Positions 2,955 through 12,480 of a DNA stretch of 64,000 nucleotides are shown here, in pieces. Within the stretch, counting starts at the first letter, position 1; each line of letters opens with the position of its first letter. The position numbers and the translations under genes are program-made. Under the pieces are notes generated by a model. It was not told the origin of the DNA. It saw only the letters and a program-made list of their open reading frames with translations, and searched no databases. The stretch lies in the NCBI GenBank assembly GCA_947447955.1, contig CANFLS010000002.1, positions 9,072 through 73,071 on the forward strand. Reading direction: 5' to 3'. The DNA is from Flavobacteriales bacterium (GTDB taxonomy: Bacteria > Bacteroidota > Bacteroidia > NS11-12g > UBA955).

Positions 2955-3032
2955 TGAAAATCAAAAATTCCGTTCATTTAATTAAAATTTAAAATATATC
3001 TAAATTTAACACAAAAAATTATCTTTGCCATT

Positions 3033-3767
3033 ATGCAATTCAGGAAATTTATAATGATGATAGTTTTAGGTTTGATGTTTTCTAATTTATCCAGCCAATC
3101 AAAATTATCAGTAGAAAAAAAGCTAACTCCGACTGGATTTGGAAAATTAAAAATTAACAAGACAACAGTTTCAGACTTGTTGAAGGGTGATTCAGATATT
3201 TTGTATTTTTTTTTAATAAAAAACAACATCGACACTTTAACAGGGAATGGGCCTGATTTCAATGAGTTTGGGTCAGAATTTTCGAATATTCTAATTTATT
3301 CAAATTTGTATTATGGCTACAAAGTAAGAATGGGAATCATCAAAGAATACACCATAGGAGAATCAAAAATAAATTTGGCTTTGGTGTTTTATAATGATAC
3401 TTTAGTTCAATTAACTATAGCTAATTTAAATTCTGAACTTCATGATCAATGGAAATTAAAATACGGGGATGGTATCTTGACATCTCAACTCAAAAAGATT
3501 AAGTGTAGCAATATGTATGGAGAATTTAGTGAAGAAGAATTGTATTCAACAGTTAACTGGGGCAATAATTTATCGAAAGTATTAGCAACCTGGGAGTTTG
3601 ATAAATATTATGATTCAAAATGTCAAAAACAATATATGGATTATTTTAAGGTACAAAATCCTAAAAAAATGAAAATTGTAGAAACAATTTCGAATAAAAA
3701 CATATTGAAAATTCAGGGATTAATTGAAAGAAAAAAGAAAAATGAAGCTTTAAAATCAGACCTCTAA
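3033..3767 (+). CDS. Hypothetical secreted protein
   Basis: Signal-peptide-like N-terminus 'MMIVLGLMFSNLSSQ'. No motif recognised. Confidence 0.45.
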   Translation: MQFRKFIMMIVLGLMFSNLSSQSKLSVEKKLTPTGFGKLKINKTTVSDLLKGDSDILYFFLIKNNIDTLTGNGPDFNEFGSEFSNILIYSNLYYGYKVRMGIIKEYTIGESKINLALVFYNDTLVQLTIANLNSELHDQWKLKYGDGILTSQLKKIKCSNMYGEFSEEELYSTVNWGNNLSKVLATWEFDKYYDSKCQKQYMDYFKVQNPKKMKIVETISNKNILKIQGLIERKKKNEALKSDL

Positions 3768-3793
3768 ATACTTATTTTAAATTCCAACTTAAC

Positions 3794-4084
3794 TCAATCA
3801 GTCCTTTGTAACCACTCCAATCCTTTCATAGTCCAGCTTATAAGCAATTCACATTCTTCTGGAGACAACCCTTTTGTTCTGTTTATCTCAAACGTATCGA
3901 TAGATACATGAAAACCACCTAGACATTCTAAGTCCCAAATTACGTAAGTATTGCTTTCATCAAGATATGCATCTGCATTCAGAACTTGCTCATCTCTATT
4001 AAATTTACATATTAGAATCCTTTTGGATGGATCACGTGGTGCTAATGCATATTGAAAAGGCCCGTAAGAAATATAGTTATACAA
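3794..4084 (-). CDS. Small hypothetical protein, paralogue 1 of a tandem pair
   Basis: 96 aa. Its C-terminal half aligns with the neighbouring 100-aa protein: 'VIWDLECLGGFHVSIDTFEINRTKGLSPEECELLISWT' against 'VVWEVDEIGTYHVSLDNLDIDKTEGLFQEETELLQFWT'. Confidence 0.55.
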   Translation of the reverse strand: MYNYISYGPFQYALAPRDPSKRILICKFNRDEQVLNADAYLDESNTYVIWDLECLGGFHVSIDTFEINRTKGLSPEECELLISWTMKGLEWLQRTD

Positions 4085-4126
4085 AACTTGAGTTTTTTAA
4101 TTGAAGTTAATTGTTAAAACATGACA

Positions 4127-4429
4127 TCAGCCTTCTAACAAATGCATTCCATGGTGATTTGTCCAGAATTGGAGCAATTCAGTTTCTTCTTGAAATAAGC
4201 CTTCCGTTTTATCAATATCCAAATTGTCTAATGAAACGTGATAGGTTCCTATTTCATCAACTTCCCATACTACACACGTTTTACTAATATTAAGCGAACC
4301 TTCGGCAGTGATTCTTTGTTCTCCTCTGTGCAGAGTGCCAATTATTACTGTTTTCAAAGGGTCATAATCTGACCTAGGTGTTTCAACTGGAGGTTCAGCA
4401 ATTTTCAATTTGATGTCATTGGTGGTCAT
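4127..4429 (-). CDS. Small hypothetical protein, paralogue 2 of a tandem pair
   Basis: 100 aa, paralogous to 3794..4084. Immediately downstream of the caspase-like gene on the same strand. Confidence 0.55.
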   Translation of the reverse strand: MTTNDIKLKIAEPPVETPRSDYDPLKTVIIGTLHRGEQRITAEGSLNISKTCVVWEVDEIGTYHVSLDNLDIDKTEGLFQEETELLQFWTNHHGMHLLEG

Positions 4430-4485
4430 TTTGAGGGATTTTGTCTATGATTTTTATTAATTATTGAAACCTAAATGAGTATTTC

Positions 4486-5217
4486 TTAATTTAACTTAAA
4501 AAGCTTTGAAAATTCTTGTAAATTCAAGTTGCCCAAGATGTAATCACTCTTTTGAACAGCAAGTTCATCTTTATTTATTTCCTGAACAAATTGTTCAAAG
4601 CTAAATGCTGAATTTTCATTTAATTTTTCCATCAGGGATATGAAGAATTTTTGTGTACCATATCCTCCATGAAAATTTGTATAAGCGAAATTCTCAAGTT
4701 CAGTAACATAGTACATCATGTAAAATGAGTTCATGCAATTTAGGGTATTTTCCCATTGCACTCTATTCTGTTCCGATTTTCCAGGAAAAGAGTATTCTTT
4801 TCTTAAAACTTCAAACTTAGGCGAATTAGGTGCAGGGTTGTTTGACCTACAACAATCCATAAAAATCCATTGTTTCTTATTAGGCCTTATGAATTCAGAT
4901 TCATATATGCTCTGGCCATCCTTAAGAGGGATTTGAATTCTTCTATCCACAAAATTTGAATGTCCCGAAAAATATATAAACGTATAATCAGAAGCGTCTA
5001 TTAACTCAAATATTGCATCACGGGTAATGTCATTTGTTTTGCATGTTGAAATTTCATCATCATTAAAAGAACCACCTGAAGCGGAAGTCAAAAAACACTT
5101 AATAAGTCCCAAATCCGATTCGGATTTAAACTCTTCAGAAGCGTCTAAGCTATTATCATTACAAAGAAGAATTGCTTTTCTTGTGATTTTTTTATGTTCA
5201 TTCATGGGATTATGCAT
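4486..5217 (-). CDS. Caspase-like (peptidase C14 / CHAT-like fold) cysteine protease domain protein
   Basis: beta1-like 'KAILLCND'. Catalytic-His motif 'IYFSGHS'. Catalytic-Cys motif 'IFMDCCRS' about 46 residues later, which matches the caspase/metacaspase His-Cys dyad spacing. The start overlaps the upstream small gene by 8 nt. Confidence 0.6.
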   Translation of the reverse strand: MHNPMNEHKKITRKAILLCNDNSLDASEEFKSESDLGLIKCFLTSASGGSFNDDEISTCKTNDITRDAIFELIDASDYTFIYFSGHSNFVDRRIQIPLKDGQSIYESEFIRPNKKQWIFMDCCRSNNPAPNSPKFEVLRKEYSFPGKSEQNRVQWENTLNCMNSFYMMYYVTELENFAYTNFHGGYGTQKFFISLMEKLNENSAFSFEQFVQEINKDELAVQKSDYILGNLNLQEFSKLFKLN

Positions 5218-5512
5218 CTTTATTTGTCCTGAAAATTTCTATTGCTAAATTCCTTTTTTCATGGAAAACTGTTGGGTGTACATACTCGCATTTGCCATCT
5301 TTTTCTATCCGAAAATATTCTATATGACGATGTATTCCAGCACCATCATTCGAAACATCATCTGGGACTACAGCCAGGAGATATACAATTTCTTCTAATT
5401 CGTAGTAAATCACATTTAAACAACGTCTGCTACCCCACGACAAATAATCAATTATTTGAGTTTCAAGCCTTGCATTAAACTCATCAACTGTTATTTGCTG
5501 TTCATTGGTCAT
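5210..5512 (-). CDS. Small hypothetical protein (100 aa) in an operon with the caspase-like gene
   Basis: Overlaps the downstream caspase-like ORF, so translational coupling is likely. Its start ATG overlaps the stop of an upstream paralogue remnant (ATGA). Confidence 0.5.
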   Translation of the reverse strand: MTNEQQITVDEFNARLETQIIDYLSWGSRRCLNVIYYELEEIVYLLAVVPDDVSNDGAGIHRHIEYFRIEKDGKCEYVHPTVFHEKRNLAIEIFRTNKDA

Positions 5513-5652
5513 ATTGGTATTTTATTTTTAGGTATAAGCAATTTTGTCCAAAATTGAAGCATCTCTGATTCTTCTGACGACAAACCTTCCGTTTTATCAA
5601 CAATTAATTTATATTGGATATATTTTTCAACTACTTCAATTTGCCTAACTTT
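5509..5652 (-). pseudogene. C-terminal remnant of a third member of the small-protein paralogue family. It has no start codon.
   Basis: The minus-strand frame translates to '...KLIVDKTEGLSSEESEMLQFWTKLLIPKNKIPI*'. This matches the C-termini of the 3794..4084 and 4127..4429 proteins, and the nucleotide string 'ccttccgttttatcaa' is shared with 4127..4429. There is no ATG in frame after the upstream stop. Confidence 0.45.
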
Positions 5653-7097
5653 TTCATATTGTTATATGTCCATGAGTTTTGTTTAGACGCAAAAAGTTGA
5701 CGACCATTTTTTTTGTAAAACTCTTCACCTGTCAGTGGATCCCGAATTTTTACTGACCACAAATCATCTTTAAAAAGAAGGTGCTCAGTTAGACTTCTTA
5801 TTGCACCACCAGCAGTAGTAACATTATAAACCGAAACATATTGCTTTCCACGCCTCGTCACTTCTACCTTGTTTAGAACTGCGTTTTTTGAAAGAATATA
5901 CTCTTCGGCTTTTTTGTGTTTTTTAGTACGTTCATCTTCAATTGTATCAGACCATCTAAATCTACTATCTACAATTGGGAATTTAACATTCGCTGATATT
6001 TCGATACCTTTATTCTTCAATTCAGAAATAATGAAATTAACAGAATCTTCAAACCGAAGCAAACTGGGAATTTCAGGTACAACAATTAAATTCACCCCAT
6101 ATTGTTTACATTTTTCTATTTTAAGTTTGTCATCTTGCAACAATTTTTTAGTTCCTCTATGATACTTTTCTGAGTAATGTTGTTTACCATTATGTTCAAA
6201 AGCAATTTTTAAATGATCAGAAAACCCATCTAATTCTAGTCGATTTCCTTCATTATTTAGCAACCATGTAGGTCTAACTTTTAAAAACGGAACTTCGAAA
6301 ATTGATTCGAAAATAAATCTACAAACTCTTTCGCCGACACCAGCTGAACAATAGGGACACCAAATTGATTGACTTTTGATAGTGCTATATTTTGATTTAA
6401 ACTCATGTCCATCTTTACATTTCCAAACTTGCAACTCATATGGATTGTATGTTTCTGATAAAAACTTTCCGTTCCTTGTTTCGGCGAGTGAAATACAATC
6501 TGCAATTGTAACTTTCCCTTTACCACTGCATTTTGGGCAATTTTGTTTATGATTTTTAATATTGTTGTATGTCATTGTAAAAACATGACCTTTTTTATTG
6601 CATTTCCATTGTGCTTTTATAGTTGTTCTATTTGGAATTTGAAGAGATAACAATTCACAATCCACGTGAATACCCGCCATTACATAATCATCTCGTGAAA
6701 CTTTTGTTCGGTCTTTTTGCCAAAGCTCAGTTGATAGACAAATTTTACACCAACTACCTTTAGATAAAGATTGTCCATGAGGATAAAATATATGCCCCTC
6801 ACCACATTTTACCTTGTATTTTGTATGTTGATTGATATATTGCTCACTTAGGAATTCACCACCTTTTTGTTTGCAAATTTCCCGCATGTCATCTATTGTA
6901 ATTTTCTTTTGGCCAGCACAATTAGGACACCAACTTCCTCTTAATATAGAATCCGCAGTGGCAGACCAAATGTGACCATGTTCACATTCCCAATCATAAT
7001 GTGCTTTTACACCAGAATATTCACTACTAAGGCATTTACCCAATTTTTCATTTGCGGTAAAACGCAAGTCTGTTATAGTTTTCTTTGGGTTATTCAT
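5631..7097 (-). CDS. Multi-zinc-ribbon (DUF4379-like repeats) protein with a C-terminal Vsr/DUF559-like (restriction-endonuclease-fold) domain
   Basis: About five repeats of 'W.C..GH.W......G.WCP.C' in the N-terminal 250 aa. The C-terminal 'LELDGFSDHLKIAFEHNGKQHY' matches the DUF559/Vsr 'vDF....klaiEvDGgqH' pattern. Confidence 0.5.
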   Translation of the reverse strand: MNNPKKTITDLRFTANEKLGKCLSSEYSGVKAHYDWECEHGHIWSATADSILRGSWCPNCAGQKKITIDDMREICKQKGGEFLSEQYINQHTKYKVKCGEGHIFYPHGQSLSKGSWCKICLSTELWQKDRTKVSRDDYVMAGIHVDCELLSLQIPNRTTIKAQWKCNKKGHVFTMTYNNIKNHKQNCPKCSGKGKVTIADCISLAETRNGKFLSETYNPYELQVWKCKDGHEFKSKYSTIKSQSIWCPYCSAGVGERVCRFIFESIFEVPFLKVRPTWLLNNEGNRLELDGFSDHLKIAFEHNGKQHYSEKYHRGTKKLLQDDKLKIEKCKQYGVNLIVVPEIPSLLRFEDSVNFIISELKNKGIEISANVKFPIVDSRFRWSDTIEDERTKKHKKAEEYILSKNAVLNKVEVTRRGKQYVSVYNVTTAGGAIRSLTEHLLFKDDLWSVKIRDPLTGEEFYKKNGRQLFASKQNSWTYNNMKKLGKLK

Positions 7098-7192
7098 TAT
7101 ATATCGTGAAGCGTTTATTAAACTATTTAATGAATATCGAAATAAATTGAATTCGAGGGCAGTTTATTCAAAAATCACAAAAAAAATCCAAA

Positions 7193-7232
7193 TTACAACA
7201 AAAAAAACTCCACTCATTGCTGGGTGGAGTTG
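7193..7232 (-). terminator. Rho-independent terminator downstream of the 7256..7861 gene
   Basis: Hairpin 'ctccactcattgctgggtggag' followed, on the minus strand, by a T-run. Confidence 0.45.
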
Positions 7233-7255
7233 AAAACATGTAACATAAAAAGTAT

Positions 7256-7861
7256 CTAGAAAGAACATTCGGCATCGAATTTTTCTTGAAAATACTTTTT
7301 AGGATTACACAATAGCTTCTCACGCATTACCTCGAGGGTTTTATGACCGTGAATTCCAAAATACAGAACAGGTCCAATAAGCGAATTGTCTAATGGCACG
7401 ATTGCATCAAAAGGATTGTTAAATTCATCATTCCTACTAAATAGATTAAAAATCAGGTATGACAAGTTTAGGGATTTGTTGAGTTTGTTTAACTCTGCAA
7501 TTGCTTCTGCATCCAATACTACATCTTTATTTGGAGTTGGAAAATTAATTAATGGGTTTGTCAAATCTTTAAATTTTAGGCCAAATAGTTTACCTTGTTG
7601 CAATAGTTCAAAATTGATTTGCTTACCAAAATCGCCCCAAGTGTAACTACTCATTTCGATTACTGCGTCTTCGTAATCTTTGCGTGAATCAAATCCAAAA
7701 TTTCCATCTTGATGTTCACTTTTTGTTTTTTTAATTTTATCTATTATGTTCATGATATGTTTGCCTTTAGGCAATACAAAGATACAAAATGATAAAAAAA
7801 TTACCAGTAAAATGTATAAATATTTATCAACAGTTACGTTTACATTCAACCCATAAAACAA
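7256..7861 (-). CDS. Hypothetical membrane-anchored protein
   Basis: 201-aa ORF with a hydrophobic N-terminal segment 'YLYILLVIFLSFCIFVL'. Confidence 0.4.
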   Translation of the reverse strand: MFYGLNVNVTVDKYLYILLVIFLSFCIFVLPKGKHIMNIIDKIKKTKSEHQDGNFGFDSRKDYEDAVIEMSSYTWGDFGKQINFELLQQGKLFGLKFKDLTNPLINFPTPNKDVVLDAEAIAELNKLNKSLNLSYLIFNLFSRNDEFNNPFDAIVPLDNSLIGPVLYFGIHGHKTLEVMREKLLCNPKKYFQEKFDAECSF

Positions 7862-8059
7862 AGAAAAAGCAGGGCATTTAACAACCCTGCTTCAACTGGT
7901 TTAACGATTTTATTAGTAACGTATGGCTATTGCACTATCCTCTTTGATTGAAAGGATTTTTAATTTATTTAATTTGGCTGATAGGATACAAATGCATTGA
8001 ATTTCAAAACACATCACGCGACCTGTTTACAAATCTTTAATTTAACATATTTTATTAGA

Positions 8060-9775
8060 TTATATAGCATGTACCCTACCAAATTCATCTATCCTAAATA
8101 AATTCAAATCCTTAAAAATTTGCATCATCATTCGACTTTGTTTAGCATCTATATCATAATTATCCTGAAGAATCCATTCTAAATCCAAATAATAAACCTC
8201 TTCCTGTCTAAAAATACCAGGCCCTGTTTTGAAAAAATCTTCTGCAGCCAAATAGAAATTTTCGTCTTCACCATATACAGAACTACCAATCCTGTCATGT
8301 ATAAATTTTATAATTGGGTCAAGAACATATTCTGTTTCTGATTCAGGCAAAACCAAAATTTCAGGGTTGAAATCGAAACTACCTTCACCTTCTTTTCCTA
8401 GTAAATCTTGAGTGTTGAAGGTAACACGTTCATTTAATTTCAAAATTACATTTTCGCAATTTCCATTACTTCGGCGAAATCCTTCATTTGCCTGAGAGAT
8501 CTCTTTATTACCCTCACCTTCAAAATTCACTATGGTTTGAGGGCTGAAGGTTGAAGCATCTGGATTTTCTGCTGTATCAAATATATTTTCGTTACCATCA
8601 CCTTCAACTTTTTCTTGGGTATTTGGTGTGAAGGTTGTTTTTGTCTCAGCATTTATTTCCGAAGAATCTTTGGGGGCAAATTCATCAAGATAGTAAAGTC
8701 CTTTTACATTTTTAACTCTTTCTATTGTTGCCAAATCTCTTAAACGACGTTCGGCCGTTGTTAATGATACATTTAAAAAAGTTTTAATTTTTAGACACGT
8801 AGTTTTAAACGGAAAACCTTTATCTTTAAATATCATGAATAAATCGGACTCAGTTAATTCTTGTTTGCTTTTTTTAACGTTACTATTCATTGATTCCCAA
8901 TTACCCATAACATCAAAGGTTAATGTTTCCTCTTCAAACTCAACTGGGAGTCTATTTTCCTTGTAAAAGTTGGATGTATAATTTCCTTTGGCTACGTTAA
9001 AAAACTTTTGTCCACTTTCGTTTCTAGATAAATATAATGCATATCTAACTTTTTGGGTTAACCCACTACCGCCTTGTATTAATTCTTGAGATGGATTACT
9101 CTTGTATCCAGCTTTATTAACGTGATGAACAAAAAGAAGAGCCAATCTATGGGTTCTGACTAATTCATCAAACGCTTTGATGTCCCGCCTCATCTGAATA
9201 TTGCTGTTTGTATCGGAACCAGAAAATATATCTCCAAACGCATCTACAATAATTAGATCGACTGGATTTTCTTCACAGAATAAAGACAACTTCTTTATTA
9301 ATTCAGTGATTGTTTCATCGGTTAAAAAAGCCAAGCTAAGATTGTTTTTATCAAGATCTACATGTTTCAGCAATTGCTTGTTTAAACTGCTACTAACGGC
9401 ATCCTCTTGGTCTTCCGTAAAAACATAAAGAACCCGATTGTGAATCGGTTTTAATCTCTGGCCCAAATATTCGGTAGAGCCTTTTGCAATTGTTATAGCC
9501 AATTCTTTAGCTAGTTGAGATTTTCCCATATCAGGAGGTCCAACCAATAATCCTGTTCCTGTGCGAGGAATTAGGTTATCCCATAAGAAGTCCGTTTCTT
9601 TTCCATCAAAGGATGCCAAAAGTTCGGTAGCTGTGTAAACTAATAAGCTACTTTTAGTTTTAACAGCGGTTGTGATTGAACTAACGTTGGTTTGTTCGTG
9701 TGCTCCAGATGAATCTTTCCGATACTCTGAGCTTTTTATTAAATTACTCATAATTGAATGCAAAATTGGCAGCAT
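8060..9775 (-). CDS. AAA_25/RepA-like P-loop ATPase (primase-associated replicative helicase of integrative elements)
   Basis: Walker A 'GPPDMGKS' and Walker B 'LIIVDAF' in a RecA-like core, with a long C-terminal extension. It sits in the position typical of element replication modules, near the integrase and excisionase-like genes. Confidence 0.6.
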   Translation of the reverse strand: MLPILHSIMSNLIKSSEYRKDSSGAHEQTNVSSITTAVKTKSSLLVYTATELLASFDGKETDFLWDNLIPRTGTGLLVGPPDMGKSQLAKELAITIAKGSTEYLGQRLKPIHNRVLYVFTEDQEDAVSSSLNKQLLKHVDLDKNNLSLAFLTDETITELIKKLSLFCEENPVDLIIVDAFGDIFSGSDTNSNIQMRRDIKAFDELVRTHRLALLFVHHVNKAGYKSNPSQELIQGGSGLTQKVRYALYLSRNESGQKFFNVAKGNYTSNFYKENRLPVEFEEETLTFDVMGNWESMNSNVKKSKQELTESDLFMIFKDKGFPFKTTCLKIKTFLNVSLTTAERRLRDLATIERVKNVKGLYYLDEFAPKDSSEINAETKTTFTPNTQEKVEGDGNENIFDTAENPDASTFSPQTIVNFEGEGNKEISQANEGFRRSNGNCENVILKLNERVTFNTQDLLGKEGEGSFDFNPEILVLPESETEYVLDPIIKFIHDRIGSSVYGEDENFYLAAEDFFKTGPGIFRQEEVYYLDLEWILQDNYDIDAKQSRMMMQIFKDLNLFRIDEFGRVHAI

Positions 9776-10879: not shown

Positions 10880-12208
10880 TTAAATAATTTTTTGTAATTG
10901 TGGTGCTTGTTCAGAATCTTCATTCGAATTGTCTTCATCTGGCCATTGGGTAGTCAGTTCTCTCAGTTTTACCATTTCCCCCAATATTTTCTGATTCGTT
11001 ACCTTGGCGTAAATCTGCGTTGTTTTGATATCAGAATGACCAAGCATCTTACTTACGCTTTCCATAGATATTCCCTGAGTCAAAGTTATGGTAGTAGCAA
11101 ACGTATGTCGAGCCAAATGTGTAGTAAGCGTTTTGTTGATTCCACATATATCTCCAATTTCTTTTAAATATGCATTCATCTTTTGATTGCTCAACACTGG
11201 CAACACTTTTTTATCAATTTCTCTAGCAGGATGGCCATTGTACTTTTTAATAATTCTCAATGCTGCTGGTAAAAGTGGAACATTAACACCATTGCCAGTT
11301 TTTTTACGTGATGTATTAACCCATTGTTCCCCATCTATTCCCATGGAGATTTGATCTATGGTTAACATTTTAATGTCGATATACGCTAATCCCGTATAAC
11401 AGCAAAACACAAAAATGTCCTTTACCATTTCTAACCGTTCATTTGAAAAAACCTTTGCTTCCAATACGCTCAATTCTTCCATTGTTAAATAGCCCCTGTT
11501 AACCTCCCTGATTTTTCCCTTGTACTTTACATATGGGTCTTTGCTAATCATTTCAGTATTTAAAGCATATCCAATAACCGTTCTAAAGTACTTTACATAT
11601 TTAACGGCCGCATTATTGCCAATTCCTTTATCCGTTCGTAAGAAGTGCTCAAAATCCATCAAATTGGAAAATTTAAAGTCGTCGACTGCGACATCTTGAA
11701 CGTTCAACTTTTTGTTCAAGAAATCAAGCAAATGAACTTTTAGGGTGCAATATTTTCGATATGTTAAATGACTGTATTCAATACCTACCAAATCTTTTCT
11801 AATGGCAATAAACCTTTCAAAGATTTCCATAAGGGTAACTCGTTTTTCTGGAGTGCCTAAGTAATGCTTTTTAATGTCATAGACGCTAATTGCATTGCCA
11901 TTACCTACCAACATGGAATACACCTGATAGATGTTGTTGTTAATGTCTCCTAAGCAAGAATTGATGGTTTTAGATTGCTCTGATGAACCTCTTGCCCTTT
12001 TGTTAATTTCACACCATTTGTTAGCTTCAATTTTCAAACCAGTGCTCATTTCAACCCTTTGAGAGTTAAGTGTGATTCGGACGTAAATAATTACTTTTTC
12101 GTCATTCGATGTTCTTGTTTTGCGTGTTGTAAAAATAACGCTGAAAGAATTGTACATTTTTTTACTAATTATATCCATAAAGTTACTACATTTTGCTTCG
12201 AAAGTCAA
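10880..12208 (-). CDS. int: Tyrosine-type site-specific integrase
   Basis: C-terminal catalytic region 'HLARHTFATTITLTQGISMESVSKMLGHSDIKTTQIYAKV' carries the R..H..R..Y signature. An N-terminal Arm-type domain is present. It is adjacent to the tRNA-Asp 3' end. Confidence 0.9.
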   Translation of the reverse strand: MTFEAKCSNFMDIISKKMYNSFSVIFTTRKTRTSNDEKVIIYVRITLNSQRVEMSTGLKIEANKWCEINKRARGSSEQSKTINSCLGDINNNIYQVYSMLVGNGNAISVYDIKKHYLGTPEKRVTLMEIFERFIAIRKDLVGIEYSHLTYRKYCTLKVHLLDFLNKKLNVQDVAVDDFKFSNLMDFEHFLRTDKGIGNNAAVKYVKYFRTVIGYALNTEMISKDPYVKYKGKIREVNRGYLTMEELSVLEAKVFSNERLEMVKDIFVFCCYTGLAYIDIKMLTIDQISMGIDGEQWVNTSRKKTGNGVNVPLLPAALRIIKKYNGHPAREIDKKVLPVLSNQKMNAYLKEIGDICGINKTLTTHLARHTFATTITLTQGISMESVSKMLGHSDIKTTQIYAKVTNQKILGEMVKLRELTTQWPDEDNSNEDSEQAPQLQKII

Positions 12209-12340
12209 GTGAAGTTTTCAACACTATCAACAATATAGCAATAACTTAGAGCCATCCGAGGGAGTCTTTTTTCGCCTAATGACATGACTCCCGAATTGCT
12301 CCCCCTAATGAGCTAATTTTACGGGTATTTTAGATTCGAC

Positions 12341-12380
12341 TAAAAACAAAAAACCCCGTAAACACTAGATTTACGGGGCT
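12341..12380 (-). terminator. Rho-independent terminator downstream of tRNA-Asp
   Basis: Hairpin 'ccccgtaaacactagatttacgggg' followed, on the minus strand, by a T-run. Confidence 0.5.
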
Positions 12381-12403
12381 TAATGATTAAATAATAATTT
12401 TAG

Positions 12404-12480
12404 TGGCGGTCTGGACGGGACTCGAACCCGCGACCCCATGCGTGACAGGCATGTATTCTAACCAGCTGAACTACCAAACC
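12404..12480 (-). tRNA. tRNA-Asp (anticodon GUC)
   Basis: Reverse complement 'GGTTTGGTAGTTCAGCTGGTTAGAATACATGCCTGTCACGCATGGGGGTCGCGGGTTCGAGTCCCGTCCAGACCGCCA'. It folds as a cloverleaf with anticodon loop 'CTGTCAC' and is near-identical to E. coli tRNA-Asp. Confidence 0.9.

What the first reader, a model, noticed from the sequence alone, without database searches (positions are those of the whole stretch)
3794..5652. Tandem paralogue family with a start-less third remnant whose stop overlaps the next gene's ATG
The proteins from 3794..4084 and 4127..4429 share a clear C-terminal block ('(D/E)I(D/N)(K/R)T(E/K)GL..EE.ELL..WT'). A third copy exists only as a C-terminal fragment at 5509..5652, on the minus strand: '...KLIVDKTEGLSSEESEMLQFWTKLLIPKNKIPI*'. 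The fragment has no start codon, shares the DNA string 'ccttccgttttatcaa' with the 4127..4429 gene, and ends in an ATGA overlap with the 100-aa gene. Arrays of diverged paralogues plus truncated 'orphan' fragments are a hallmark of immunity-protein or cassette shuffling, as seen downstream of polymorphic toxins and in rapidly evolving defence loci. This argues that the operon is under conflict-driven diversification.
Basis: seen in the sequence. Interest (0 to 1): 0.55.

Follow-up and report, generated by a model that had tools for sequence, protein, structure and literature searches.

The report
Gene scar in a defence hotspot
The "third copy" is a roughly 60-base dead remnant of a small conserved gene, left beside a homing-endonuclease-like gene where a mobile element repeatedly swaps defence genes; it is an ordinary recombination scar, not an expressed gene or an immunity-protein array.

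Summary
The sequence observations hold. p96 (3794..4084) and p100 (4127..4429) are true paralogues (38% identity over 81 aa, E=1e-20). A third start-less piece lies at 5509..5652.

Only 5543..5607 (p100 codons 70-91) is family sequence. It matches p100 alleles of other elements at 55-56/59 nt, against 46/59 for the neighbouring p100. So it is a relic of a different allele, not a local duplicate. The TGA in the ATGA overlap comes from the next gene's own ATG-ACC, which recurs in a locus that has no relic.

The region is the cargo hotspot of an integrase element inserted at tRNA-Asp. The p100-p96 pair forms its conserved right flank. Related metagenomic elements carry at least six different cargo sets upstream, including type I and type IIG restriction-modification systems.

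The relic abuts a 488-aa gene with zinc-finger repeats and a Vsr/EDxHD-like nuclease domain, the architecture of a homing endonuclease. A sister element has the same 488 gene followed by a more decayed p100 relic and then p96.

p100 and p96 evolve under purifying selection (dN/dS 0.07-0.35). The family is rare (13 clusters among 1.84 billion representatives) and matches no known family or fold.

Cassette turnover is supported. The polymorphic-toxin/immunity reading is not. Low interest.

The parts
3794..4084 (-). p96: the downstream paralogue of the small-protein pair (96 aa, TTG start conserved across loci). It forms the outer end of the conserved island at the right edge of the hotspot.
   Evidence: BLASTP against p100 gives E=1e-20. 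Orthologues are present in L002, L007, L009, L010, L011, L012 and L013. dN/dS is 0.07-0.35. Homology with every related locus stops at 3793/3794.
4127..4429 (-). p100: the upstream paralogue (100 aa). It has a four-strand beta meander and a C-terminal helix. The conserved block DKTEGL..EE.ELLQFWT covers the loop and the start of the helix.
5543..5607 (-). Core of the p100 relic: codons 70-91 of a p100 allele (LIVDKTEGLSSEESEMLQFWTK). It has no start codon and is cut at both ends.
   Evidence: blastn of 5600..5543 gives 94.8% identity to L006 p100 (E=5e-20) and 93% to L007 p100. The counts are 56/59 to L012 against 46/59 to the window's own p100. It is copy 3 of repeat family D1.
5509..5542 (-). 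Tail of the open frame (LLIPKNKIPI*). It is junction DNA or a heavily decayed p100 3' end and intergenic piece. The TGA belongs to the ATG-ACC of the next gene.
   Evidence: The global alignment with L007 needs 15-nt and 11-nt deletions here. Homology with L009 begins only at 5516.
5210..5512 (-). X: a 100-aa gene unrelated to p100/p96. It is the first gene of the X-caspase cargo pair, and its stop overlaps the caspase-like gene's start by 8 nt.
   Evidence: hhalign against the family gives probability 0.1%. L009 has an 88% aa orthologue in the same X-caspase-p100-p96 order.
4486..5217 (-). Caspase-like protease (243 aa, Peptidase_C14 with a His/Cys dyad context). Cargo gene.
   Evidence: Pfam PF00656 E=2e-4, just at the cutoff. 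There are 16 homologues. The gene is absent from L006, which otherwise shares the 237-aa HEIGH gene and p100 with L009.
5631..7097 (-). 488-aa homing-endonuclease-like protein: three or more DUF4379/CapR treble-clef zinc-finger repeats followed by a Vsr/EDxHD-fold nuclease. The relic lies immediately 3' of it.
7256..7861 (-). 201-aa gene: the conserved left flank of the hotspot.
   Evidence: Conserved in L002 (39% aa) and in L007/L008 (57% aa). DNA homology with L007 ends at 7201.
10880..12208 (-). Tyrosine integrase of the element that carries the hotspot.
   Evidence: Pfam Phage_integrase, Phage_int_SAM_5 and Arm-DNA-bind_5.
12404..12480 (-). tRNA-Asp next to the integrase: the probable attachment site and element boundary.
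   Evidence: ARAGORN.

Best explanation
Shown:
- The window begins inside an integrative element inserted at tRNA-Asp. It carries an integrase, an AAA_25 replication ATPase, RadC, DUF3871 and AAA_24.
- Between a conserved 201-aa gene (left flank, boundary near 7200) and the conserved p100-p96 pair (right flank, from 4442) lies a cargo hotspot. In related elements the hotspot holds entirely different genes, two of the sets including restriction-modification systems.
- The 'third copy' is a non-coding relic of a p100 gene. About 60 nt from the most conserved block survive, with no start, directly after the 488-aa homing-endonuclease-like gene.

Inferred history:
1. Arrival of the 488-aa gene destroyed the 5' two-thirds of a resident p100. 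That state is still seen, more decayed, in L001/L002: 488, then a p100 3' relic, then p96.
2. Recombination with an L009-like element then placed X-caspase-p100 between the relic and p96.
3. The reverse order is equally possible. L002-type elements could arise from a window-type element by deletion between the 58-nt direct repeats at 5543-5600 and 4158-4215.

In both orders the conserved flank genes supply the homology for cassette exchange, and the relic is the scar of an illegitimate join inside one of them. The frame stays open and ends in ATGA by accident.

p100 and p96 are real, selected genes of unknown biochemical role. My working view is that they are the hotspot's terminal genes, co-transcribed with whatever cargo sits upstream.
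For: Homology and allele origin:
- Paralogy of p96 and p100.
- The relic is significant at protein level and at DNA level, and it is closest to foreign p100 alleles.

Hotspot structure:
- Synteny breakpoints fall at window 5618 and 4117 against L002, at 5516 against L009, and at 7201 and 4442 against L007.
- Cargo differs upstream of p100 in L006, L007/L008, L009, L011 and L012. It includes a type I RM system (Pfam) and a type IIG RM system (PADLOC E=2e-235).
- L002 has a decayed p100 3' relic between 488 and p96.

The 488-aa gene:
- Its ORF is complete. All 14 close homologues stop at the same place and none carries the motif.
- It is HEG-like (PMC12350094).
- It occupies other slots in other elements.

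Selection and context:
- The intact paralogues are under purifying selection.
- The ATGACC start is shared with L009, which has no relic.
- Integrase and tRNA-Asp are adjacent.
Against: - The relic is still 93-95% identical to live alleles and has no internal stop, whereas the L002 relic has indels. If both descend from one old junction, the window's copy is surprisingly well preserved. Possible reasons are a recent event, gene conversion, or some retained role.
- The order of events (insertion or deletion) cannot be resolved.
- Every related locus is a metagenomic contig, and only a handful were found.
- No expression data exist.
- The function of p100/p96 is unknown, so a role for the conserved block as DNA or peptide cannot be excluded.
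Confidence: 0.8

Rival explanations
1. p96, p100 and the fragment form an array of diversifying immunity-type proteins with an orphan remnant, as found downstream of polymorphic toxins (Rhs/CDI-like loci).
For: There are tandem paralogues plus a truncated copy. The neighbourhood is conflict-related. Distant family members sit directly after, and overlap the stop of, unrelated upstream genes: DUF2130 in L014 and a TonB_C protein beside AbiEii and NERD genes in L018-L020. That would fit a small partner-protein role.
Against: - No polymorphic toxin gene or toxin-CT fragment is present.
- The upstream genes beside nearly identical p100 genes are unrelated: a caspase-like protease, an HEIGH protein, a DUF4145/HEPN-like protein and others. 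One immunity protein could not plausibly serve all of them.
- Orthologues are conserved, with dN/dS 0.07-0.35.
- No locus has more than two copies.
- The relic belongs to another p100 allele and is not a diverged paralogue.
Confidence: 0.05
2. The fragment is expressed. One route is a C-terminal extension of the 488-aa nuclease through a -1 shift at G AAA AAG (about 5645-5651). The fragment is in the -1 frame, and one extra A would fuse the two ORFs. The other route is a small peptide from a non-canonical start.
For: The frame relation and the AAAAAG run can be read directly from the sequence. The frame is open for 50 codons. The relic retains the helix-forming block nearly intact.
Against: - All 14 close homologues of the 488-aa protein stop at the same ...KKLGKLK position, and none carries the motif.
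- In L002 the -1 frame closes after 7 codons.
- The downstream RNA has no stimulatory structure (z=-0.14).
- The heptamer is not a canonical X XXY YYZ.
- 17% of random 50-codon frames here are open.
Confidence: 0.04
3. The roughly 60-nt block is kept as a functional DNA element. It could be the recognition or homing site of the neighbouring endonuclease, or a preferred crossover site for cassette exchange.
For: The relic is 93-95% identical to live alleles. In both the window and L002 the p100 remnant begins within a few codons of the same place, right after the 488 gene. The 488 protein is HEG-like.
Against: The two junctions may be one inherited event. The block is no more conserved among intact alleles than the rest of p100 (block 78-95% against overall 79-93%). 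The 488 gene also sits in unrelated positions that lack p100.
Confidence: 0.08
4. The fragment is an assembly artefact: a chimeric join between co-occurring element variants in a metagenome assembly.
For: The source is probably a metagenome-assembled contig. The exact proteins are on record from a contig of 222,446 bp held by NCBI, Logan and ENA. Variants sharing p100 could confuse an assembler.
Against: A chimera at shared k-mers would join homologous positions. It would not leave a 60-nt internal piece with unique flanks on both sides. The exact 488, X, caspase-like and p100 proteins are recorded on 4-9 contigs each, from three sources. L001 and L002, from two samples, independently show a 488/relic junction.
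Confidence: 0.03

Closest known systems
Defence-system hotspots of integrative elements and phage satellites
   Same: Conserved flanking genes in related integrase-bearing elements. Unrelated cargo at one position, including restriction-modification systems. Exchange presumably by recombination in the flanks.
   Different: The host and element type differ: a Bacteroidota-style integrase (Arm-DNA-bind_5, Phage_int_SAM_5) with RadC, DUF3871 and AAA_24, inserted at tRNA-Asp. The right flank is a pair of orphan paralogous 100-aa genes. A flank gene was itself truncated, which left a scar. No defence activity has been tested.
Free-standing homing endonuclease genes of the CapR/DUF4379-repeat + EDxHD/Vsr-like class (PMC12350094; I-Bth0305I, PDB 3r3p)
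   Different: Homing has not been shown. No HEG-minus/HEG-plus pair with an intact target at the same site was recovered. The protein could equally be a defence nuclease carried as cargo.
Orphan toxin/immunity cassettes of Rhs/CDI polymorphic toxin loci
   Same: Truncated start-less gene pieces lie next to intact paralogues in a recombination-prone locus.
   Different: There is no toxin gene and no toxin-CT module. The intact genes are conserved rather than hypervariable. Only one short relic is present.

Membership tests
Polymorphic-toxin orphan immunity array | A large upstream toxin gene with a conserved N-terminal part and a variable C-terminal toxin domain | tested here: not met
   The ORFs and Pfam results for 3700-7900 show a caspase-like 243-aa protein, a 100-aa protein and a 488-aa zinc-finger nuclease. 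No Rhs, CdiA or similar gene is present.
Polymorphic-toxin orphan immunity array | Orphan modules made of a toxin-CT fragment followed by its cognate immunity gene | tested here: not met
   The relic is about 60 nt of p100 only. It is flanked by the 488 stop and by the start of gene X.
Polymorphic-toxin orphan immunity array | Immunity genes hypervariable between strains | tested here: not met
   p100 and p96 orthologues share about 80-93% aa identity, with dN/dS 0.07-0.35.
Defence/cargo hotspot of an integrative mobile element | The element is integrative (integrase next to a tRNA attachment site) | tested here: met
   tRNA-Asp at 12404..12480 lies beside the integrase at 10880..12208.
Defence/cargo hotspot of an integrative mobile element | The same conserved flanks in related elements, with unrelated cargo between them | tested here: met
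   The flanks are the 201-aa gene and p100-p96. Cargo differs in the window, L002, L006, L007, L009, L011 and L012.
Defence/cargo hotspot of an integrative mobile element | Cargo includes recognised defence systems | tested here: met
   HsdM, HsdS and HsdR in L006. A type IIG REase-MTase (PADLOC E=2e-235) with a specificity subunit in L007.
Defence/cargo hotspot of an integrative mobile element | The cargo protects against phage | not testable with these tools
   This needs phage challenge of cloned cassettes. The window's own cargo (488, X, caspase-like) has no PADLOC hit.
Gene relic (pseudogene fragment) | Significant similarity to an intact gene, but truncated and without a start | tested here: met
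Gene relic (pseudogene fragment) | Not expressed as protein | not testable with these tools
   No transcriptome or ribosome-profiling data are available.
CapR/DUF4379 + EDxHD/Vsr-like homing endonuclease (the 488-aa neighbour) | Three to five CapR/DUF4379-like N-terminal repeats | tested here: met
   Pfam finds three DUF4379 stretches (E=1.6e-13) and CapR.
CapR/DUF4379 + EDxHD/Vsr-like homing endonuclease (the 488-aa neighbour) | A C-terminal nuclease domain with the Vsr/EDxHD fold | tested here: met
   [not shown]
CapR/DUF4379 + EDxHD/Vsr-like homing endonuclease (the 488-aa neighbour) | Catalytic motif residues in place | tested here: inconclusive
   Invariant E-L-D-G, F-E, H, D and K columns exist in the C-terminal domain. 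I did not map them onto the EDxHD active site.
CapR/DUF4379 + EDxHD/Vsr-like homing endonuclease (the 488-aa neighbour) | Site-specific cleavage and homing into HEG-less alleles | not testable with these tools
   Only sporadic occurrence in different slots was observed.
Programmed -1 ribosomal frameshift | A slippery heptamer in the correct frame | tested here: inconclusive
   G AAA AAG is present in frame, but it is not a canonical X XXY YYZ.
Programmed -1 ribosomal frameshift | A downstream stimulatory RNA structure | tested here: not met
   Fold z-score -0.14.
Programmed -1 ribosomal frameshift | A conserved -1 extension in homologues | tested here: not met
   In L002 the -1 frame stops after 7 codons. 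No homologue carries the motif.

The most novel reading that the evidence does not exclude
The 488-aa CapR/DUF4379 + Vsr-like nuclease is an active free-standing homing endonuclease, and its target lies in or next to the conserved p100 block. On this reading the relic is the co-converted flank that travels with the nuclease gene, and homing-type double-strand breaks drive cargo turnover at this hotspot. That would make a newly recognised HEG class an engine of defence-island shuffling in Bacteroidota-type integrative elements.
Probability: 0.1. Interest if true: 0.55.

Novelty: new member of a known kind. Interest (0 to 1): 0.25.

Why it matters
The result is mainly a clean worked example. A start-less "third paralogue" turns out to be a recombination scar that marks the edge of a cargo hotspot in an integrative element.

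It also flags three uncharacterised items that could be followed up:
- a very rare orphan family of 100-aa proteins (p100/p96) that sits at the 3' end of many unrelated defence-type cassettes;
- a compact X + caspase-like two-gene cassette that behaves as a mobile unit;
- a homing-endonuclease-like gene lying next to the damaged flank gene.

None of these changes current understanding as it stands.

Tried and rejected
1. Fusion or sequencing-error idea. One extra A in the A5 run would fuse the 488 ORF to the fragment. I rejected this as the ancestral state because all 14 close homologues end at the same stop and lack the motif.
2. Programmed -1 frameshift. There is no downstream structure and no conservation of the extension.
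3. Family assignment for p100, p96, X and the fragment. Pfam, PADLOC, PHROGs and NCBIfam gave nothing.
5. Scans with the family alignment. The GTDB representative genomes and IMG/VR returned no relatives. The metagenome scan returned only 3 short loci.
6. X as a family member. Rejected: hhalign probability 0.1%.
7. P0148, an 1183-aa repeat protein in the HMM search. I judged it, by inspection only, to be a spurious match caused by its repeats.
8. Homology of the sequence upstream of X between the window and L009. It begins only 4 nt before the ATG.
9. Sigma-70 promoter and terminator scan of 3700-7400. Counts did not exceed the shuffles, and the consensus used does not suit Bacteroidota anyway.
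10. PDB sequence search with the 488-aa protein. No hits.
11. Literature searches for DUF3871 (uninformative) and DUF4379. Only PMC12350094 was useful.
Full report
OBSERVATION

p96 (3794..4084, TTG start) and p100 (4127..4429) align over 81 residues at 38% identity (BLASTP E=1e-20). They are paralogues along most of their length, not only in the C-terminal block.

The frame that ends at 5509 reads *QYEKVRQIEVVEKYIQYKLIVDKTEGLSSEESEMLQFWTKLLIPKNKIPI*. It contains no ATG, GTG or TTG that would give 30 codons or more.

- It matches p100 at 15/23 residues (E=1e-9) and p96 at 10/19 (E=7e-6).
- A tblastn of p100 against the window plus all loci held at that point recovers it at E=7.5e-6.
- The shared 16-mer occurs exactly twice, against about 0.13 expected.
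- The repeat finder reports one 58-nt block in three copies: 3828-3885, 4158-4215 and 5543-5600.
- The ATGA overlap at 5509..5512 is present.

WHAT THE FRAGMENT REALLY IS

The family-derived part is short: 5543..5607, which corresponds to p100 codons 70-91 of 100.

At DNA level it is 56/59 identical to the p100 allele of locus L012 and 55/59 to those of L006 and L007. It is only 46/59 identical to the window's own p100 and to L009's. It is therefore not a diverged third paralogue and not a recent local duplicate. It is a leftover of a different p100 allele.

Upstream, the open frame simply runs into the 3' end of the 488-aa gene (5631..7097) in the -1 frame. Downstream, I see no clear p100 homology in the ten codons LLIPKNKIPI. 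An alignment with an intact locus needs 15-nt and 11-nt deletions there.

The terminal TGA is made by the next gene's own ATG-ACC. That sequence is identical in L009, where no relic exists and where homology with the window begins only 4 nt before the ATG. Open 11-codon stretches occur in 55% of random frames here, and open 50-codon stretches in 17%. Neither the open frame nor the ATGA overlap is evidence of coding.

CONTEXT

tRNA-Asp (12404..12480) sits next to a tyrosine integrase (10880..12208). From there to the start of the window lies an integrative element. Reading from the integrase, it carries:

- a 92-aa gene and a 265-aa gene;
- an AAA_25 replication-type ATPase (8060..9775);
- a 201-aa gene;
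- the region of interest;
- RadC, DUF3871 and AAA_24.

Related metagenomic contigs share this backbone. In them the stretch between the 201-aa gene and p100 is completely different:

| Locus | Content between the left flank and p96 |
|---|---|
| L006 | HsdM-HsdS-HsdR, a 237-aa HEIGH protein, p100 (no p96) |
| L007/L008 | type IIG REase-MTase (PADLOC E=2e-235), specificity subunit, a 264-aa membrane protein with weak, sub-threshold DUF4145/HEPN-like matches, p100, p96 |
| L009 | HsdR end, a 240-aa HEIGH protein, X, caspase-like, p100, p96 |
| L011 | an unknown 252-aa protein, p100, p96 |
| L012 | methylase end, a 130-aa protein, p100, p96 |
| L001/L002 | 488-aa gene, p96 |

Homology with every locus ends exactly at the p96 stop (3793/3794) and resumes at RadC. 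A second variable stretch therefore lies beyond p96. p100-p96 is a small conserved island at the 3' edge of a cargo hotspot, which spans about 7200..4443 in the window.

THE 488-AA NEIGHBOUR

PMC12350094 describes this architecture as a large, previously unrecognised outgroup of EDxHD/Vsr homing endonucleases.

Its homologues sit in other slots of other integrase elements, between the integrase and an HTH_17 gene, and once in a chromosomal setting. The gene therefore moves independently.

All 14 close homologues end at ...NNLKKLGKLK/T and none carries the DKTEGL..WT motif. The 488 ORF is complete and was never fused to the fragment.

HISTORY

In L001/L002 the 89%-identical 488 gene is followed by a decayed p100 3' remnant. 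That remnant runs from about codon 77 through the p100 stop and the normal spacer into p96, and it has indels. Part of it was mis-called as an N-terminal extension of p96 (MHQFW...).

Window and L002 are collinear up to 5618, 13 nt past the 488 stop. They are collinear again from 4117. So both elements have a 5'-truncated p100 directly behind the 488 gene. The window has in addition X, the caspase-like gene and an intact p100.

Two orders of events fit:

- An L002-like state (488, relic, p96) received X-caspase-p100 from an L009-like element.
- A window-like state lost X-caspase by recombination between the 58-nt direct repeats (5543-5600 and 4158-4215, 79% identical), which would produce the L002 type.

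I cannot decide between them. In both cases the relic is a scar of cassette turnover at the hotspot.

THE p100/p96 FAMILY

Both intact genes are under purifying selection: dN/dS is 0.09-0.24 for p100 and 0.07-0.35 for p96. Either one can be missing. L006 has no p96, and L002 has only a p100 relic.

The family is very rare.

- The word-indexed search found 20 hits.
- An exhaustive profile search of 1.84 billion representatives found only 13 clusters. All are single-domain proteins or fragments of 56-114 aa, except one 1183-aa repeat protein that I judged by inspection to be spurious.
- The GTDB representative genomes and IMG/VR yielded none.
- No Pfam, PADLOC, PHROG or NCBIfam model matches.

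Distant members lie directly after, and overlap the stop of, unrelated genes. These are DUF2130 in L014 and a TonB_C protein next to AbiEii and NERD genes in L018-L020. The family thus tends to be the last small gene of conflict-type operons. Its biochemical role remains unknown.

VERDICT ON THE INTERPRETATION

The locus is a high-turnover, defence-type region and the fragment is a product of cassette exchange. That part of the reading stands.

The model of orphan immunity genes downstream of polymorphic toxins does not stand.

- There is no toxin gene and no toxin-CT piece.
- Near-identical p100 genes follow completely unrelated upstream genes.
- The paralogues are conserved rather than diversifying.
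- The array never exceeds two copies.

RIVALS CONSIDERED

- A -1 frameshift at G AAA AAG would append the relic to the 488 protein. There is no downstream RNA structure (z=-0.14). The -1 frame closes after 7 codons in L002. No homologue has the extension.
- A functional DNA site, such as a homing target or crossover hotspot, cannot be excluded. The block is no more conserved than the rest of p100 among intact alleles, and the two junctions may be one inherited event.
- An assembly chimera is unlikely. The relic has unique flanks on both sides, and the exact proteins are recorded on several contigs from three sources.

UNEXPLAINED

The 33 nt ending in the p100 ATG (4427-4459) match 6529-6561 inside the 488 ORF at 28/33. 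The 25 nt just after the p100 stop (4101-4125) match the directly adjacent 6565-6589 at 20/25.

The next-best matches anywhere in the window are 22-23/33 and 17-18/25. None of 1500 random pairs of segments gave such an adjacent double match.

The 488 segment is conserved coding sequence for a zinc-finger motif. A-rich composition inflates the apparent significance. A short ectopic conversion patch is possible. I did not resolve this.

SCORES

This is an ordinary kind of feature, a gene relic at a mobile-element cargo hotspot, in a poorly charted lineage. I rate it a new member of a known kind, with interest 0.25.

Noticed in passing
[not shown]
   Followed up: partly
window 4486..5512 (-); L009 2340..3363: X (100 aa) and a caspase-like Peptidase_C14 protein (243 aa) overlap by 8 nt (ATGCATAA). 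They behave as a two-gene insertion/deletion unit between the HEIGH gene and p100, as shown by comparing L009 with L006. The pair has no PADLOC hit and is a candidate uncharacterised defence cassette.
   Followed up: partly
window 4427-4459 and 4101-4125 compared with 6529-6561 and 6565-6589: The immediate 5' and 3' flanks of p100 match two adjacent pieces of the 488 coding sequence (28/33 and 20/25), in permuted order. These are far better than any other match in the window. The cause could be chance in A-rich DNA or a short ectopic conversion patch. Unresolved.
   Followed up: partly
window 5645..5651 (-): G AAA AAG lies near the end of the 488 ORF, and the -1 frame from there runs into the relic. 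One extra A would fuse the two frames. This is not conserved in L002 and there is no downstream RNA structure.
   Followed up: yes
window 10880..12480: tRNA-Asp is directly adjacent to a Bacteroidota-type tyrosine integrase (Arm-DNA-bind_5, Phage_int_SAM_5). This marks one end of the integrative element. The other end lies beyond the start of the window.
   Followed up: partly
window 2958..3793: A second variable stretch lies between the p96 stop and RadC. The window has a 244-aa gene on the + strand with a hydrophobic N-terminal stretch that could be a signal peptide (judged by eye). L007 has genes of 126 and 247 aa there, L009/L010 have a 455-aa ORF that reads like a TPR-type repeat protein (also by eye), L006 has genes of 194 and 183 aa, and L002 has a 143-aa gene.
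   Followed up: no
L002 7519..7890; L007 7278..7634; L011 1105..1461: Gene callers give p96 orthologues an N-terminal extension of 20-27 aa. The extension actually reads through the p100 3' end, or through its relic, in another frame. The conserved start is the TTG at ...TTGTATAAC, and the window and L009 have a stop codon just upstream of it.
   Followed up: partly
window 7247..7300: A 25-nt inverted repeat with a 4-nt loop (76% complementary) straddles the stop of the 201-aa gene, at the left boundary of the hotspot. It may be a terminator or a regulatory hairpin.
   Followed up: no
L007 6159..6953: The cargo protein directly upstream of p100 in L007/L008 has an N-terminal half that looks hydrophobic (possible membrane helices, by eye). 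Its C-terminal part contains RNKVAH (an Rx4H HEPN-like motif) and gives weak Pfam matches, below the curated cutoffs, to DUF4145 and HEPN_Swt1. It follows a type IIG restriction-modification system.
   Followed up: partly
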